A stretch of DNA of 63,772 nt, the filler included, from Reclinomonas americana ATCC 50394 (Eukaryota): NCBI GenBank assembly GCA_048213135.1. It is 5 parts of 3 records of this genome, joined end to end, with 100 filler letters (N's around TTAATTAATTAA, not from the genome) between each part and the next. Parts side by side here need not be neighbours in the genome. Positions count along the whole stretch, not along the records: positions 1 to 20,208 come from PS015116.1; 4 more parts are not named here. One strand, written 5' to 3'. Under the pieces are notes generated by a model, which had not been told where the DNA came from, made no database searches, and saw only the letters and a list, made by a program, of their open reading frames with translations. Position 1 is the stretch's first letter, and every line of letters starts with the position of its first letter. Made by a program: the position numbers and the translations under genes. Below, in pieces: positions 5,852 through 13,133 of the stretch.

Positions 5852-5968
5852 TCACCACCCGCTGCGAGGGTCATCGGCAAAGCATCGATACACCAGCACC
5901 TCCGTGTCCTCCACCAGGAAGGCGCACCGAGGATCCTCTTCCCCCACTTCCTCCAGCATTTCCTGCAT
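5852..5968 (-). pseudogene. Orphan 3' remnant (C-terminal tail only) of the WD40 gene family
   Basis: Encodes QEMLEEVGEEDPRCAFLVEDTEVLVYRCFADD..GW*, the family tail with an internal deletion and no WD repeats upstream. Confidence 0.8.
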
Positions 5969-6028
5969 GGCATGCATGCTTGATCTAAAGGCCATAGAAG
6001 ACGCAGATCCTCACGTACTTCACGCCTT

Positions 6029-7114
6029 TCACCACCCGAGAGAGTCATCGACAAAGCATCGATACACCAGCACCTCGGCATCCTCGACCAAGAAACAGCG
6101 CACCACAATCTCCGCCAAGCATCGGGGATCCTCTTCACCCACTTCTTCCAGCATCTCCTGCGCCACCCGCATCGCCGAACGAGCGCAGTCGAGCTCCTGT
6201 CGAGCGAGACCGCGCGGCGTGGACCACACACGCACGGTCTTGTCGTTGCCCCCCGTCACAATGTGCTGACCATCAGGGGTGACAGCGACAGAGCACACCG
6301 CATCAGTGTGTCCCTCTAACCGTCGCACTTCCTCTCCACTCACCAACGACCACACGCGCACACTCCTATCGTGACTACCGCTCACAATATGCTCACCATC
6401 TGCCATGGCGGCGACGCTAGACACAGCACCAGTGTGCCCCTGAAGCCGCCGTACTTCCTTGCCACTCTCCACAGACCACACTCGCGCCGTGCAGTCATAA
6501 CTCCCGCTGATAATGCACTTGCCGTTGGGAGTGACGGCCACTGACATCACTCCGTTTGTGTGTCCCTCCAACCGCCGCACCTCCTCGCCACTCGCCAGAG
6601 ACCACACTCGCACAGTCTCATCATCACTCCCGCTCACTATGGATTGACCATCGGGGGTGACAGCGACCGCATTCACCCAATCCGAGTGCCCGGTCATGCG
6701 GTTCACTTCTTCTCCACTCGCGAGTGCCCACACACGCACAGTGTTATCAGAACTGCCGCTGACAATGTGTTGACCATCGGGAGTGATGGCGACTGACCAC
6801 ACAGTTCCGTTGTGACCCTCCAACCGTCGCGAGTCCTCTACATCTCTGCTCTCTAGAGACCACACCTGAACAGTCTTTTCCCCGCCACTCACGACGTGCT
6901 GGCCATTGGGAGTGACAGCTATGGACCAAACCGCACAATTGTGTCCCTCCACTCGTCGCACCTCCCTGCCACTCGCCAGCGACCAAACACGCACCGTGTT
7001 GTCACCACTTCCACTCACGATGAACTCGCCGTCGGCGGTGACAGCGACAGATGACACGGCTGATGTATGGCCAAGCAGGGGTTTGTGAGGGAGGGAGGGA
7101 GGAGCAGAGGTCAT
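6029..7114 (-). CDS. Intronless WD40-repeat protein with conserved C-terminal tail (cluster 1)
   Basis: 361-aa ORF, seven GH...VAVTPDG..IVSGS.D.TVRVW repeats, tail LARQELDCARSAMR...EEDPRCLAEIVVRCFLVEDAEV. Confidence 0.93.
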   Translation of the reverse strand: MTSAPPSLPHKPLLGHTSAVSSVAVTADGEFIVSGSGDNTVRVWSLASGREVRRVEGHNCAVWSIAVTPNGQHVVSGGEKTVQVWSLESRDVEDSRRLEGHNGTVWSVAITPDGQHIVSGSSDNTVRVWALASGEEVNRMTGHSDWVNAVAVTPDGQSIVSGSDDETVRVWSLASGEEVRRLEGHTNGVMSVAVTPNGKCIISGSYDCTARVWSVESGKEVRRLQGHTGAVSSVAAMADGEHIVSGSHDRSVRVWSLVSGEEVRRLEGHTDAVCSVAVTPDGQHIVTGGNDKTVRVWSTPRGLARQELDCARSAMRVAQEMLEEVGEEDPRCLAEIVVRCFLVEDAEVLVYRCFVDDSLGW

Positions 7115-7315
7115 GGTGTGTGTGCGTGGCGTGAGACGGACGGGGAATGCGTGTCCTTTTCTGAGAGGACGGACGTGGACGGATTGAGTCCGTCGCTGGA
7201 GGCTTCTTTACAAGTTCACTGTGTGGATTACACGAGACCAGAGGGTCAGAGAACGACATGGAGAGAATCAAGAGAGTAAAGGCCATAGAAGACGCAGATC
7301 CTCGCTTCTCGACCA

Positions 7316-7517
7316 TCACCACCCAAGGGAGTCATCGGCAAAGCAACGATACACCAGCGCTTCGGCATCCTCCACCAGGAAGCAGCGCAGCACGATCTCC
7401 ACCAAGCGCCGAGGATCCTCTTCGCCCACTTCTTCAAGCATCTCCTGCACAACCCGCATAGCCGAACGAGCGCAGTCGAGTTCCTGATGAGCGAGTCCGC
7501 GCGGCGTGGACCACACG
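7316..7517 (-). CDS. WD40 family copy; only the 3' end is visible and the rest is in an N gap
   Basis: VWSTPRGLAHQELDCARSAMRVVQEMLEEVGEEDPRRLVEIVLRCFL...GW*; the family 5' flank resumes at 7905. Confidence 0.8.
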
Positions 7518-10705: not shown

Positions 10706-11788
10706 TCACCACCCAAGGGAGTCGTCGGTAAAGCATCGATAAACCTGCGCTTCGGCGTCCTCCACCAGGAAACAGCGCAGCACGATCTCCACCAGGCACC
10801 GAGGATCCTCTTCCCCCACTTCTTCCAGCATCTCCTGCACCGCCCGCATCGCCGAACGAGCGCAGTCGAGCTCCTGTCGAGCGAGACCGCGCGGCGTCGA
10901 CCACACCCGCACTGTCTCGTCTTCGCCTCCGCTGACAATGCGCTGGCCATCGGGAGTGACAGCAACTGAATGCACCCAATCCGTGTGGCCTTCCAATCGC
11001 CGCACTTCTTCTCCGCTCGTCAGCGACCACACGCGCACTGTCTTATCGGCACCCGCACTGACAAGGCGTTGACCATCGGGAGAGACGGCGACGAAAGACA
11101 CAGAACCGGCGTGCCCCTGCAGCCGTCGCACCTCTTCGCCACTTGACAGCGACCACACTCGCACTATGCCGTCATAACTCCCGCTGATAATGTGCTCATC
11201 ATTGGGAGTGACGGCCACCGACATTGCACCGTATGTGTGTCCCTCCAACCGTCGCACCTCTTCGCCACTCATCAGAACCCACACTCGCACAGTCTCATCA
11301 TCACTCCCACTCACTATGAACTGACCATCAGCAGTGATGGCAACCGAGAGCACCCAATCCGAGTGCCCGCTCATGCAGGTCACTTCCTCCCCGCTCGCCA
11401 GTGACCACACGCGCACAGTGTTGTCCGTACTCCCGCTCACAATGTGTTGGCCGTCGGGAGTCACGGCGACAGACATTACCCAGCTCGTGTGTCCCTGCAG
11501 CCGTCGCACTTCCTCTCCCTTTGCTGCCGACCACACACGCACTGTGGTGTCAGCGCTCCCACTCACAAAGTGCCGTCCGTTGGGAGTGACAATGACACGG
11601 ATCACATCTCCAGTGTGTCCCTCCAAGCGTCGCAACTCCTTGCCAGTCGCCAGGGACCAAACACGCACGGTGTTGTCGTCACTCCCCGTGACAATGAACT
11701 CGCCGTCGGGAGTGATGGCGACAGAGGACACGGCCGATGTGTGGCCGTGCAAGGATGTGTGAGGGAGGGAGGGAGGGGCAGAGGCCAT
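10706..11788 (-). CDS. Intronless WD40-repeat protein with conserved tail (cluster 1)
   Basis: ATG at 11788 (MASAPPSLPH) matches the paralog starts; seven WD repeats and the tail. Confidence 0.93.
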   Translation of the reverse strand: MASAPPSLPHTSLHGHTSAVSSVAITPDGEFIVTGSDDNTVRVWSLATGKELRRLEGHTGDVIRVIVTPNGRHFVSGSADTTVRVWSAAKGEEVRRLQGHTSWVMSVAVTPDGQHIVSGSTDNTVRVWSLASGEEVTCMSGHSDWVLSVAITADGQFIVSGSDDETVRVWVLMSGEEVRRLEGHTYGAMSVAVTPNDEHIISGSYDGIVRVWSLSSGEEVRRLQGHAGSVSFVAVSPDGQRLVSAGADKTVRVWSLTSGEEVRRLEGHTDWVHSVAVTPDGQRIVSGGEDETVRVWSTPRGLARQELDCARSAMRAVQEMLEEVGEEDPRCLVEIVLRCFLVEDAEAQVYRCFTDDSLGW

Positions 11789-11914
11789 GGAAGGAGTGTG
11801 TGCGAGACAGCGAAGGGAAACTTGTAAGCGGACATGTGAACGGAACCAATCGAGCGTCGCAGTCACCCCACTCTCAGGAGGAGAAGCGGTCTTCTTCATT
11901 GACGTTCGGGGTTG

Positions 11915-12940
11915 TCAGTAATAACCACCGCCCTTCGGAGCACGACCGCCACCTGGAACGAACTGACCGCCCTTGTAGAACGTCAGCCCCGGCGACGGTG
12001 CGGAGGCACCCGCAATAAACGGTCGGTAGAAGCCGGAGGAGCCAGAGCTGCTGCTGCTGCCACTATAGCTGGAAGAGCGAGAGCTGCTGGGGCGGTATAC
12101 GTAGTAGCTGGAGGAGCGAGAGCTGCTGGGGCGGTAGCTGCGTGTGGCAGAGGCAGAAGCAGAGCCATAGCCATAGCCGTAGTCGTAGGAGCCGGTGTCA
12201 ACGAAGACCGGAGACGGCACGTACAGCTGTCGTCTCTCGGCATGCACGACGCGCACTTGCTGCTGGTGAGCCTGCTCGGCATGATGCGCAGGTCGCCGCT
12301 GTCGATACTGTGGCTCGACTTGGTGCGGTTGCTGCTGCTGCTGCTGCTGCTGCTGTTCATACCGGGGCTCAACGTCGCGCTGCCGCCGCGCAGGCCCTGC
12401 CACCAACGGCACGGTGTAATCCGCACTGGCTGGTCGCTGCGATGGGACAGCAGGTGATGCCTGAGGCTGCGGAGGCCGTGCCGATGGTGCTGCAGATCGC
12501 GGATGGTCGGCGTCATCGCTCACTGCACTGGTGCTAGAGCCTCCGCCCACCGCCTGCGGCTGTCGCTGCGGTGACGCCTTGGTGCGTTGGGCTGTCGTCG
12601 TCGCCTTCATCTCCGCGCGCAGGTCCTGCAGCTTGTTCACCTGGCCCTCCAGTCCGTTGATGAAGCCCGGCACCTCGGAGGCATTGGGGTGGCGCTTGGC
12701 CCGCTCCAATCCCACTTCAAGCTGGGCGAGCTTCGCGTCGTGGCACGTGGTCCACTTCGGAAATGATTTCGCGCGCTTTTCGTTGCCGCCGCCATTGATG
12801 TGCGCGGCAAAGTCCTTCTCCGCGCGCCGATCGTTAACAAACGGCCCGTCCTTCAGGCCCTGGTTGCCCGCCGCCGTTTTGACACGCAGGTTGGCGTCGT
12901 CTGAGATGATCTCGCGGACGCGCTCCACGTAGGCCTCGCC
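11915..12940 (-). CDS. Hypothetical protein, 5' end in gap: possible HNH-like segment, helical region, Q/S/Y-rich linker, Gly-rich C-terminal motif
   Basis: Open GC-rich frame of ~340 codons from the gap to the stop: REIISDDANLRVKTAAGN ... QQQQ ... FYKGGQFVPGGGRAPKGGGYY*. Confidence 0.7.
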   Translation of the reverse strand, partial: GEAYVERVREIISDDANLRVKTAAGNQGLKDGPFVNDRRAEKDFAAHINGGGNEKRAKSFPKWTTCHDAKLAQLEVGLERAKRHPNASEVPGFINGLEGQVNKLQDLRAEMKATTTAQRTKASPQRQPQAVGGGSSTSAVSDDADHPRSAAPSARPPQPQASPAVPSQRPASADYTVPLVAGPARRQRDVEPRYEQQQQQQQQQPHQVEPQYRQRRPAHHAEQAHQQQVRVVHAERRQLYVPSPVFVDTGSYDYGYGYGSASASATRSYRPSSSRSSSYYVYRPSSSRSSSYSGSSSSSGSSGFYRPFIAGASAPSPGLTFYKGGQFVPGGGRAPKGGGYY

Positions 12941-13076
12941 NNNNNNNNNNNNNNNNNNNNNNNNNNNNNNNNNNNNNNNNNNNNNNNNNNNNNNNNNNNN
13001 NNNNNNNNNNNNNNNNNNNNNNNNNNNNNNNNNNNNNNNNNNNNNNNNNNNNNNNNNNNNNNNNNNNNNNNNNNNN

Positions 13077-13133
13077 GGATGCACTGTGGCCACACAAGAT
13101 TCTGCAGGGGAGAGAGGGAGGAGGCGAGGACAT
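13077..13133 (-). CDS. 5' start of a further WD40 family copy, truncated by N gap
   Basis: MSSPPPSLPCRILCGHSAS matches paralog N-termini (MASAPLSLPCRVLRGHTES). Confidence 0.7.

What the first reader, a model, noticed from the sequence alone, without database searches (positions are those of the whole stretch)
5852..13133. Tandem array of intronless WD40 genes with a fixed scaffold and variable top-face residues: candidate diversifying recognition (immune-like) receptor family
Seen: at least six head-to-tail minus-strand copies plus a remnant. Each has ~7 highly similar 42-aa repeats (LEGH-xxx-V-x-sVAVTPDG-x-x-IVSG-s-x-D-x-TVRVWSLASGEEVRR). Variation concentrates just after GH (TSAVSS, NCAVWS, SDWVNA, AVYVFC, EEWVWS, TYGAMS) and around SGxxD (G/S/D/Y/H/W/A/C). 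Established: these positions map to the top ligand-binding face of WD40 propellers, the same face that is hypervariable in the internally conserved WD repeats of Podospora HET-E/HET-D NLRs. Inference: a stand-alone receptor repertoire evolving by birth-and-death and repeat shuffling, but lacking the NACHT domain. This is the best candidate for an undescribed system in the window.
Basis: partly seen in the sequence, partly recalled or inferred. Interest (0 to 1): 0.82.

Follow-up and report, generated by a model that had tools for sequence, protein, structure and literature searches.

The report
Tandem stand-alone WD40 propeller gene family
A little-studied protist carries a tandem cluster of intronless genes for seven-bladed WD40 propellers that share a rigid scaffold and a new C-terminal tail but differ at the ligand-binding face, a pattern like the sensor domains of NLR-type immune receptors, though no immune role is shown.

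Summary
On the minus strand there are four complete intronless 7-blade WD40 genes (A, C, D, E), two copies cut by assembly gaps (B, F) and one decayed tail remnant. Two more paralogs (G, H) lie at 42.6-45.8 kb.

Variation peaks at unit positions 25, 7, 6, 9 and 27. Positions 7, 9, 25 and 27 are the codons reported under positive selection in Podospora HET-D/E.

My codon model gives omega 0.24 for the scaffold and 1.4 for those four codons. Position 7 is 2.6, position 9 is 1.9, position 25 is 1.6 and position 27 is 0.7.

The copies are old (dS 0.6-1.3), so they are not haplotype duplicates. They are not HET-E-like in mechanism:
- Repeat units are about 58% identical, not 85% or more.
- Every complete copy has seven blades.
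- Units mostly match the same blade of another paralog.
- There is no NACHT domain.

Gene conversion between paralogs is moderately supported.

The closest propeller relatives are TIR/NACHT/NB-ARC-WD40 proteins from metagenomes, which vary at the same five positions. A roughly 65-residue helical tail defines the family and is nearly unique; one relative comes from a Reclinomonas americana EST.

Best reading: a birth-and-death family of binding modules with a shared docking tail. An immune role is unproven.

The parts
5850..5967 (-). Decayed remnant of the 3' end (tail) of a further copy
   Evidence: blastn gives 72-75% identity to the 3' ends of A, B, C and E. The translation shows the tail motifs with an internal deletion and no propeller upstream.
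6029..7114 (-). Copy A: intronless gene for a 7-blade WD40 propeller plus C-terminal tail (361 aa)
   Evidence: Uninterrupted ORF. Seven PF00400 stretches, E 1.9e-82. AlphaFold model with pLDDT 87 and pTM 0.84, 28 strands and a helical tail of low confidence.
7316..7517 (-). Copy B: only the last 66 codons (end of blade 7 plus tail) are visible; the rest lies in the gap at 7518-7904
   Evidence: tblastn gives 90.9% identity to the tail of C over 66 residues. The gap is a run of 387 N. Spacer homology places the B start inside the gap, and the gap is too short for a full copy.
8088..9170 (-). Copy C (360 aa)
   Evidence: ORF. Seven PF00400 stretches, E 1.8e-84.
9435..10511 (-). Copy D (358 aa)
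   Evidence: ORF. Seven PF00400 stretches, E 6.3e-83.
10706..11788 (-). Copy E (360 aa from the conserved start; the ORF is open up to 11899)
   Evidence: ORF. Seven PF00400 stretches. The N-terminus aligns with the other copies from the Met at 11788.
13077..13133 (-). Copy F: only the first 19 codons are visible, then the gap at 12941-13076
   Evidence: The translation shows the family's conserved N-terminus up to the first GH. The gap is a run of 136 N.
42590..43663 (-). Paralog G (357 aa), outside the reported region
   Evidence: tblastn gives 59% identity to C over the full length. Seven PF00400 stretches. The tail is conserved.
44624..45793 (-). Paralog H (about 389 aa; the start is uncertain and the N-terminus is longer and Pro-rich)
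   Evidence: tblastn gives 60% identity to C. Six PF00400 stretches, with blade 2 carrying an insertion. The candidate ATG was read from the translation.
7115..7315 (.). Example of the short intergenic spacers (194-264 bp), partly homologous between units
   Evidence: Segment 7141-7516 is 85.7% identical to 7914-8288, and 7148-7516 is 81% identical to 10540-10906. This is more alike than the WD-coding DNA.

Best explanation
This is a lineage-restricted, tandemly duplicated family of cytosolic single-domain proteins. Each protein is a closed seven-bladed WD40 propeller of the highly repetitive, bacterial/NLR-sensor type, followed by a family-specific helical tail of about 65 residues.

SHOWN:
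- The genes are intact and old.
- The scaffold and tail are under strong purifying selection.
- Amino-acid change is concentrated at the canonical ligand-binding top face (unit positions 6, 7, 9, 25 and 27). There it runs at or above the synonymous rate.
- The family grows and decays by tandem duplication, with some gene conversion between paralogs.

INFERRED:
- Each paralog binds a different protein or peptide ligand through its top face.
- All paralogs hand over to one common partner through the invariant tail. That would make them a panel of interchangeable recognition modules for one downstream machine.
- The propeller was probably derived from, or shares ancestry with, the sensor domain of STAND/NLR-type proteins, and is here uncoupled from any NTPase.

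UNKNOWN: which pathway it serves (defence, prey or symbiont recognition, protein turnover).
For: STRUCTURE. There are seven WD40 stretches per protein. The AlphaFold model of A has pLDDT 87. The best solved matches are prokaryotic or designer repetitive propellers: 5yzv (38% identity, target-normalised TM-score 0.95), 7big and 2ymu.

SELECTION (my MG94xF3x4 maximum-likelihood model on 6 genes):
- Omega is 0.244 for the scaffold and 1.43 for codons 7, 9, 25 and 27. The likelihood-ratio test (LRT) against omega 1 gives 7.61. A column bootstrap gives 1.00-2.12.
- Per position, omega is 2.58 at position 7, 1.92 at 9, 1.61 at 25, 1.22 at 6 and 0.72 at 27. The other 37 positions are at or below 0.57.
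- In 400 simulations under omega 1, an omega of 1.43 or more occurred with frequency 0.0025.
- With the four array genes alone, omega is 1.34 (LRT 3.4) for the four codons and 1.67 (LRT 8.1) for positions 7, 9 and 25. A bottom-loop control set gives 0.30.
- Tail dN/dS is 0.08-0.18.

AGE. ML pairwise dS is 0.61-1.27.

BIRTH AND DEATH. There is a remnant, and the spacers are homologous between units.

MOSAIC HISTORY. Third-position identity is 0.86 for blade 1 of C against D, and 0.41-0.64 in their other blades. A PHI-type permutation test gives p below 0.0005 on all sites and p = 0.027 on third positions only.

THE TAIL DEFINES THE FAMILY.
- A tail profile found 4 proteins at E of 0.001 or better among 1,835,955,588 representatives.
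- One is spurious. One is an EST-derived Reclinomonas americana protein, 68% identical to G. Two are divergent propellers with the same tail.

PROPELLER RELATIVES.
- Of the 10 closest metagenomic ORFs whose N-terminal parts I scanned, 8 carry TIR, NACHT, NB-ARC, AAA_16, NPHP3_N, APAF1_C or DUF4062 domains. One carries a kinase plus TPR, and one carries only more WD40.
- In 12 such proteins the five most variable unit positions are 7, 25, 9, 6 and 27. The Spearman correlation with the window family's per-position entropy is 0.75.
Against: - No ligand, partner, expression or localisation data exist for these copies.
- Omega above 1 is modest. It rests on my own codon model, on divergent and partly saturated paralogs, and on a single tree, although there is a recombination signal. 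Recombination and constraint on synonymous sites both inflate such tests.
- Pairwise Nei-Gojobori estimates at the hot codons were saturated. Omega ranged from 0.46 to 2.18 and was undefined for 7 of 15 pairs.
- Position 27 is not above 1.
- The tail fold has low confidence, with pLDDT of 29-58. It has no Pfam, PDB or Atlas relative, so 'docking tail' is inference from conservation alone.
- The strongly conserved bottom loops (omega 0.30) could instead be the functional surface.
Confidence: 0.6

Rival explanations
1. Immune-like or non-self receptor repertoire. The paralogs are sensors in an arms race with viruses, bacteria or conspecifics, and diversifying selection on the top face creates new specificities.
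For: - The hypervariable codons are the same as in HET-D/E.
- Omega is above 1 at positions 7, 9 and 25.
- The closest propeller relatives are TIR/NACHT/NB-ARC-WD40 proteins.
- The genes form a tandem cluster with a pseudogene remnant.
Against: - No NTPase or effector domain is present in the genes or in ORFs of 150 aa or more elsewhere in the window.
- The copies are old (dS 0.6-1.3), with a fixed number of seven blades.
- Units are only 58% identical, and there is no concerted evolution of the HET-E kind.
- The excess of omega over 1 is small.
- No strain or expression data could be obtained.
Confidence: 0.15
2. Substrate-receptor family for one enzyme complex, in the manner of WD40-SOCS-box or F-box-WD40 proteins. 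The tail plugs into a shared ligase-like or other machine, and each top face selects a different endogenous substrate.
For: - The architecture is a propeller plus a short, invariant helical C-terminal box under strong purifying selection (dN/dS 0.08-0.18).
- The top faces are specific to each paralog.
- Two divergent propellers in other organisms keep the same tail.
Against: - No SOCS-box, F-box or other known adaptor motif was found in the tail even at E up to 10.
- There is no PDB relative.
- The resemblance to a BC-box is my own reading of the sequence and was not tested.
Confidence: 0.12
3. Relaxed constraint only. The top-face positions are simply free to drift because the conserved scaffold, bottom loops and tail carry the function. 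The HET-E-like pattern is an inherited property of this WD40 subtype, not a sign of selection for diversity here.
For: - Pooled omega at the four codons is near 1, with a bootstrap lower bound of 1.00.
- With the 4 array genes alone the LRT is only 3.4.
- The hot sites are saturated in pairwise estimates.
- The same positions vary in all metagenomic relatives.
- The bottom loops are unusually conserved.
Against: - Positions 7 and 9 exceed the neutral simulations, with frequencies of 0.0025 and 0.0075.
- The hot positions are enriched in K, N, W, Y and M relative to the rest of the unit. This suits interaction surfaces, but it is not a test.
Confidence: 0.12
4. Artefact or dead DNA: assembly-duplicated haplotypes, or an array of pseudogenes.
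For: - Two assembly gaps fall inside the array.
- The window is a pseudo-scaffold joined by artificial linkers.
- One remnant is dead.
Against: - The copies differ at 25-42% of residues.
- Six full ORFs are intact, with scaffold omega 0.24 and tail dN/dS of 0.08-0.18.
- A homolog is present in an EST collection of a jakobid.
Confidence: 0.01

Closest known systems
Podospora anserina HET-D/HET-E/NWD family (NACHT-WD40 NLR-like allorecognition proteins)
   Same: - Both use a 42-residue WD40 unit with a near-invariant scaffold.
- Variability sits at the same codons 7, 9, 25 and 27, around the conserved positions 8 and 26 on the top face.
- Omega is above 1 at 7, 9 and 25.
- Both are multigene families with a pseudogene.
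   Different: - There is no NACHT or HET domain here.
- Units are 58% identical here, against about 85-100% there.
- The blade number is fixed at seven here, against 2-15 and polymorphic there.
- Units mostly group by blade position across paralogs here, rather than by gene.
- These paralogs are old (dS 0.6-1.3).
- These proteins carry an extra conserved C-terminal tail.
Uncharacterised STAND/NLR-like WD40 proteins of metagenomes (TIR-, NACHT-, NB-ARC-, AAA_16-WD40), and prokaryotic repetitive propellers with solved structures (PDB 5yzv, 2ymu) or designed from them (7big)
   Same: - They are the closest sequence relatives (up to 56-61% identity over the propeller) and the closest structural relatives.
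- The unit consensus is the same.
- The five most variable positions are the same.
   Different: - Those are long multidomain ORFs of 497-1646 aa, with 6-13 or more units that are 68-81% identical.
- None has the tail. Their matches end at query residues of about 301-320, and the tail pattern scans were negative.
- The window genes are stand-alone seven-blade proteins in a eukaryotic, intron-containing neighbourhood.
WD40 substrate receptors with a short adaptor box (WSB1-type WD40-SOCS box, F-box-WD40); comparison recalled, not tested
   Same: A single propeller whose top face selects the ligand, joined to a short conserved helical module.
   Different: No SOCS-box or F-box signal in the tail. 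No partner is known.
Gcp1-Gcp3, WD40 proteins that co-occur with the mitochondrial T2SS in jakobids and heteroloboseans (Horvathova 2021, PMC8134430, passages read)
   Same: WD40 proteins restricted to a few protist lineages, including jakobids.
   Different: - The paper describes them as Pex7-related, some with a PTS1 signal.
- The proteins here are closest to repetitive STAND-type propellers and end in a different tail.
- The Gcp sequences are in a supplement that I did not see, so no direct comparison was made.

Membership tests
WD40 repeat beta-propeller (Pfam PF00400) | Several WD40 units that form a closed propeller | tested here: met
   Seven stretches in A, C, D, E and G, and six in H. 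The model of A has 28 strands at pLDDT 87.
HET-D/E/NWD-type fungal NLR | N-terminal NACHT (STAND) NTPase fused to the WD repeats | tested here: not met
   The ORFs begin 12 residues before blade 1 and the spacers are 194-264 bp. No NACHT was found in the proteins or in 102 other ORFs of the window.
HET-D/E/NWD-type fungal NLR | High internal repeat conservation (more than 85% identity; Dyrka 2014) | tested here: not met
   Within a gene, units are 58% identical on average and 81% at most. DNA identity averages 64%.
HET-D/E/NWD-type fungal NLR | Concerted evolution and shuffling of units, and polymorphism in repeat number | tested here: not met
   The nearest unit is in the same gene in only 4 of 42 cases, and at the same blade of another paralog in 22 of 42. 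All 6 complete copies have seven blades. Gene conversion between paralogs is indicated. Variation between strains could not be tested.
HET-D/E/NWD-type fungal NLR | Positive selection at codons 7, 9, 25 and 27 on the top face | tested here: inconclusive
   Omega is 2.58, 1.92, 1.61 and 0.72 at these positions, and 1.43 pooled, with a bootstrap interval of 1.00-2.12. Caveats are my own model, saturation and recombination.
STAND/NLR-like receptors in general | A central NTPase domain plus an effector domain on the same polypeptide | tested here: not met
   Only a propeller plus tail is present. The relatives of the propeller do have these domains.
WD40-SOCS-box / F-box substrate receptors | A recognisable SOCS-box or F-box | tested here: not met
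   The Pfam scan of 7 tails at E up to 10 returned only TPR_9, DUF6511, eIF3_p135 and DED, with E-values of 0.04-0.2.
Gcp1-3 (Pex7-like WD40 of miT2SS-bearing protists) | Orthology to the published Gcp1-3 sequences | not tested
   The sequences are in Supplementary Data 1, which I did not see. Only text passages were read.

The most novel reading that the evidence does not exclude
The array encodes the detached sensor halves of a split NLR-like surveillance system in a deep-branching protist. Each propeller recognises a different foreign or altered-self ligand. The invariant tail, which has no known relatives, recruits a separately encoded NTPase or effector. Diversification of the top face reflects an arms race. 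This would be a STAND-type immune sensor working in trans, in a lineage where no innate immunity has been described.
Probability: 0.1. Interest if true: 0.8.

Novelty: new variant of a known kind. Interest (0 to 1): 0.45.

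Why it matters
WD40 sensor domains with a fixed scaffold and a hypervariable top face are known from fungal and bacterial NLR-like proteins, where they are always tied to an NTPase. Here the same type of propeller stands alone. It is multiplied in tandem, kept under strong selection for a long time, and joined to a conserved tail that has almost no relatives in 1.8 billion protein representatives.

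If the tail proves to be a docking module, the family would show how a recognition domain can be uncoupled from its signalling core. It would also give a first handle on ligand-recognition or defence systems in a eukaryotic lineage that is hardly explored.

If the family is only a set of scaffold paralogs, it remains a clean natural example of a consensus-like WD40 scaffold that tolerates free variation at five positions per blade. That is useful for binder design.

Tried and rejected
- WHOLE GENOME: none is held, so no genome-wide count was possible.
- EARLIER FINDINGS: look-ups by place and by sequence returned nothing.
- SEQUENCING RUNS: none was listed for 7905-12940, and no RNA holder was listed.
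- TAIL SEARCHES:
  - The word-based search of 5.8 billion proteins found 20 candidates, none at E of 1 or better.
  - The ESM Atlas gave no usable hit.
  - Pfam and PDB gave nothing significant.
  - The metagenome scan gave 411 pattern matches, none confirmed.
  - The scan of prokaryotic genomes gave 90 pattern matches. One was an unrelated WD40 protein at 34% identity, without the tail.
- PADLOC: only a generic WD segment of one large candidate model matched.
- PAIRWISE NEI-GOJOBORI dN/dS AT HOT CODONS: saturated and uninformative.
- CLOSEST REPEAT PAIRS: in 9 independent closest pairs, hot-codon dN over scaffold dS was 1.8. The pairs were chosen for low scaffold divergence, which biases the ratio upward. 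The hot codons' own pS (0.63) exceeded their pN (0.50), so I give this check little weight.
- TAXON PLACEMENT: the CSN2 neighbour had no close relative. Its best hits are plants, animals and fungi, at about 47% identity over the query including intron-derived residues.
- LITERATURE: I searched 'jakobid + WD40', 'WD40 tandem intronless protist expansion' and 'Reclinomonas americana nuclear genome gene family'. None gave a description of this family. That covers only these three searches of the held library.

Full report
**1. What is in the sequence**

The window is eukaryotic draft sequence with 21 runs of N.

Between 5850 and 13133, on the minus strand, lie four complete uninterrupted ORFs:
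- A, 6029-7114
- C, 8088-9170
- D, 9435-10511
- E, 10706-11788

Two further copies are cut by gaps:
- B shows only its last 66 codons (7316-7516) before a 387-N gap.
- F shows only its first 19 codons (13077-13133) before a 136-N gap.

A decayed 3'-end remnant lies at 5850-5967. The homologous spacers place the start of B inside its gap, and the gap as written is too short for a full copy. Copy number and gap sizes are therefore uncertain.

Two more full paralogs lie at 42590-43663 (G) and at 44624 to about 45793 (H). However, the window is a pseudo-scaffold. Four joins consist of N44, then a 12-base six-frame stop linker, then N44. Two of these joins lie between the array and G/H, so their linkage is not certain.

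Pfam finds seven WD40 stretches in A, C, D, E and G, and six in H. The AlphaFold model of A is a seven-blade propeller (pLDDT 87, pTM 0.84). It is followed by three helices of low confidence.

**2. Genomic setting**

The spacers between copies are 194-264 bp.

The neighbours are ordinary housekeeping genes broken into short coding blocks:
- prolyl-tRNA synthetase
- a TauD/GBBH-like dioxygenase
- a CLC channel
- V-ATPase subunit B
- CSN2
- VPS11
- Rpb8

CSN2 aligns to full-length homologs in at least four separate blocks over 1.8 kb. The WD40 genes have no interruption in about 360 codons.

Their GC3 is 0.62-0.73, against 0.75-0.81 in neighbouring exons.

No close relative of the CSN2 neighbour exists in the protein collection, and no whole genome is held.

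**3. Pattern of variation**

I put 42 units from 6 genes in one 42-residue register.
- Entropy peaks at positions 25, 7, 6, 9 and 27.
- G3, H4, V8, D26, R30, V31 and W32 are kept in 88-95% of units.
- The bottom loops are also conserved.

By DSSP on the model, positions 6 and 7 lie in the D-A loop, position 9 is at the start of strand A, and positions 25 and 27 are in the B-C turn. These elements form the top face, which is established WD40 topology.

Paoletti et al. 2007 (PMC1805685; passages read) report codons 7, 9, 25 and 27 under positive selection in the HET-D/E family, flanking the purified positions 8 and 26. The register is the same as mine.

**4. Selection**

Pairwise Nei-Gojobori estimates give these values:
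- Scaffold pS is 0.44-0.62 and scaffold omega is 0.15-0.33.
- The hot codons are saturated.

I then fitted an MG94xF3x4 model with shared branch lengths on the IQ-TREE topology.
- Scaffold omega is 0.244.
- Omega for the four codons named in advance is 1.43, with an LRT against omega 1 of 7.61.

Per position:

| Unit position | Omega |
|---|---|
| 7 | 2.58 |
| 9 | 1.92 |
| 25 | 1.61 |
| 6 | 1.22 |
| 27 | 0.72 |
| the other 37 positions | 0.57 or less |

Further checks:
- A column bootstrap for the four codons gives 1.00-2.12.
- In 400 neutral simulations, an omega of 1.43 or more occurred with frequency 0.0025.
- With only the four array genes, omega is 1.34 (LRT 3.4) for the four codons and 1.67 (LRT 8.1) for positions 7, 9 and 25.
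- A bottom-loop control set gives 0.30.

Caveats:
- The implementation is my own.
- Pairwise dS is 0.6-1.3.
- Codon bias may depress dS.
- A recombination signal violates the single-tree assumption.

I read the result as 'at least neutral, and modestly above neutral at positions 7, 9 and 25'.

**5. Mode of evolution**

Within a gene, units are 58% identical on average and 81% at most. At the DNA level the mean is 64%, whether the two units come from the same gene or from different genes.

A unit's nearest relative is distributed as follows:
- the same blade of another paralog in 22 of 42 cases
- a unit of the same gene in 4 of 42
- another unit in 16 of 42

This does not meet the high-internal-conservation criterion of more than 85% (Dyrka 2014, PMC4986451; passages read). 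It also does not show the concerted evolution and repeat-number polymorphism that define the HET-E system.

There is, however, a mosaic signal:
- Third-position identity is 0.86 for blade 1 of C against D, but 0.41-0.64 in their other blades.
- A PHI-type permutation test gives p below 0.0005 on all sites and p = 0.027 on third positions only. For the four array genes alone the values are 0.0005 and 0.084.
- The tail plus spacer is less diverged (pS 0.17-0.41; DNA identity 81-86%) than the WD scaffold.

The evidence favours birth-and-death with occasional gene conversion over unit shuffling.

**6. Relatives**

*The propeller.* It has thousands of relatives. The closest are metagenomic proteins at up to 56-61% identity with the same unit consensus.

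The 20 best loci hold long ORFs of 497-1646 aa. I scanned the N-terminal parts of 10 of them:
- Eight carry TIR, NACHT, NB-ARC, AAA_16/NPHP3_N, APAF1_C or DUF4062 domains.
- One carries a kinase plus TPR.
- One carries only more WD40.

In 12 such proteins the most variable unit positions are 7, 25, 9, 6 and 27. The Spearman correlation with the window family is 0.75. The 'fixed scaffold, variable top face' pattern is therefore a property of this whole WD40 subtype. The best solved structures are prokaryotic or designer repetitive propellers.

*The tail.* It is what sets the family apart. A profile of seven tails found only four proteins at E of 0.001 or better among 1.84 billion representatives:
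- An EST-derived Reclinomonas americana fragment (E 1.3e-22), 68% identical to G.
- Two divergent propellers from assembled read sets that end in the same tail.
- One spurious repeat protein.

The representative library is clustered at 50% identity, so close full-length relatives could hide under tail-less representatives.

The tail is under strong purifying selection (dN/dS 0.08-0.18). It has no Pfam, PDB or Atlas relative, and none was found in metagenomes or prokaryotic genomes.

**7. Interpretation**

*Shown:* an old, selected, tandemly amplified family of stand-alone seven-blade propellers, whose change is focused on the ligand-binding face, with a conserved orphan tail.

*Inferred:* each paralog binds a different ligand, and the tail links all of them to one partner.

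The immune reading gains some weight from the NLR-type relatives of the propeller. It lacks any direct support, and the defining HET-E features other than the variable sites are not met. A bacterial origin of the intronless gene is plausible but untested.

**8. Verdict**

This is a new variant of a known kind, of moderate interest.

Noticed in passing
window 20209-20308, 30128-30227, 49972-50071, 58981-59080: Each of these joins is 44 N, then a 12-base six-frame stop linker, then 44 N. The flanks are low-complexity sequence. The window is therefore a pseudo-scaffold of artificially joined contigs, and order and distance across the joins are not reliable.
   Followed up: partly
window 11915-12940 (minus strand): An intronless ORF sits between copies E and F. 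It encodes a low-complexity protein rich in Gln, Ser, Tyr and Pro. It has no Pfam family (only TFIIA at E 0.0096, below threshold), and its 5' end is lost in the gap.
   Followed up: partly
window 7141-7516, 7914-8288 and 10540-10906: The tail-coding 3' ends plus the downstream spacers are 81-86% identical between units. Their synonymous divergence (pS 0.17-0.41) is well below that of the WD-coding part (0.44-0.58). This suggests homogenisation of that segment, or faster turnover of the repeats.
   Followed up: partly
P0122 and P0123 (proteins from assembled public read sets): These are two divergent propellers of 381 and 394 aa that end in the same tail motif. The tail therefore defines a wider, rare family of propeller-plus-tail proteins in other organisms.
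   Followed up: partly
window 2549-4821 (-), 13339-16212 (-), 21500-24498 (-), 33444-34833 (-), 47598-49437 (+), 54082-55965 (+), 61074-61553 (+): The neighbours are intron-containing housekeeping genes: class II prolyl-tRNA synthetase, a TauD/GBBH-like dioxygenase, a CLC channel, V-ATPase subunit B, CSN2, VPS11 and Rpb8. CSN2 has no close relative in the protein collection.
   Followed up: partly
window 4825-5199 and 5413-5483: Long GAA/GAG-type low-complexity tracts (read as poly-Glu or poly-Ser, depending on the strand) and a (CACT)n microsatellite lie just downstream of the array.
   Followed up: no
window 11789-11899: The ORF of copy E stays open for 37 codons upstream of the conserved start. 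The true start was not determined.
   Followed up: no
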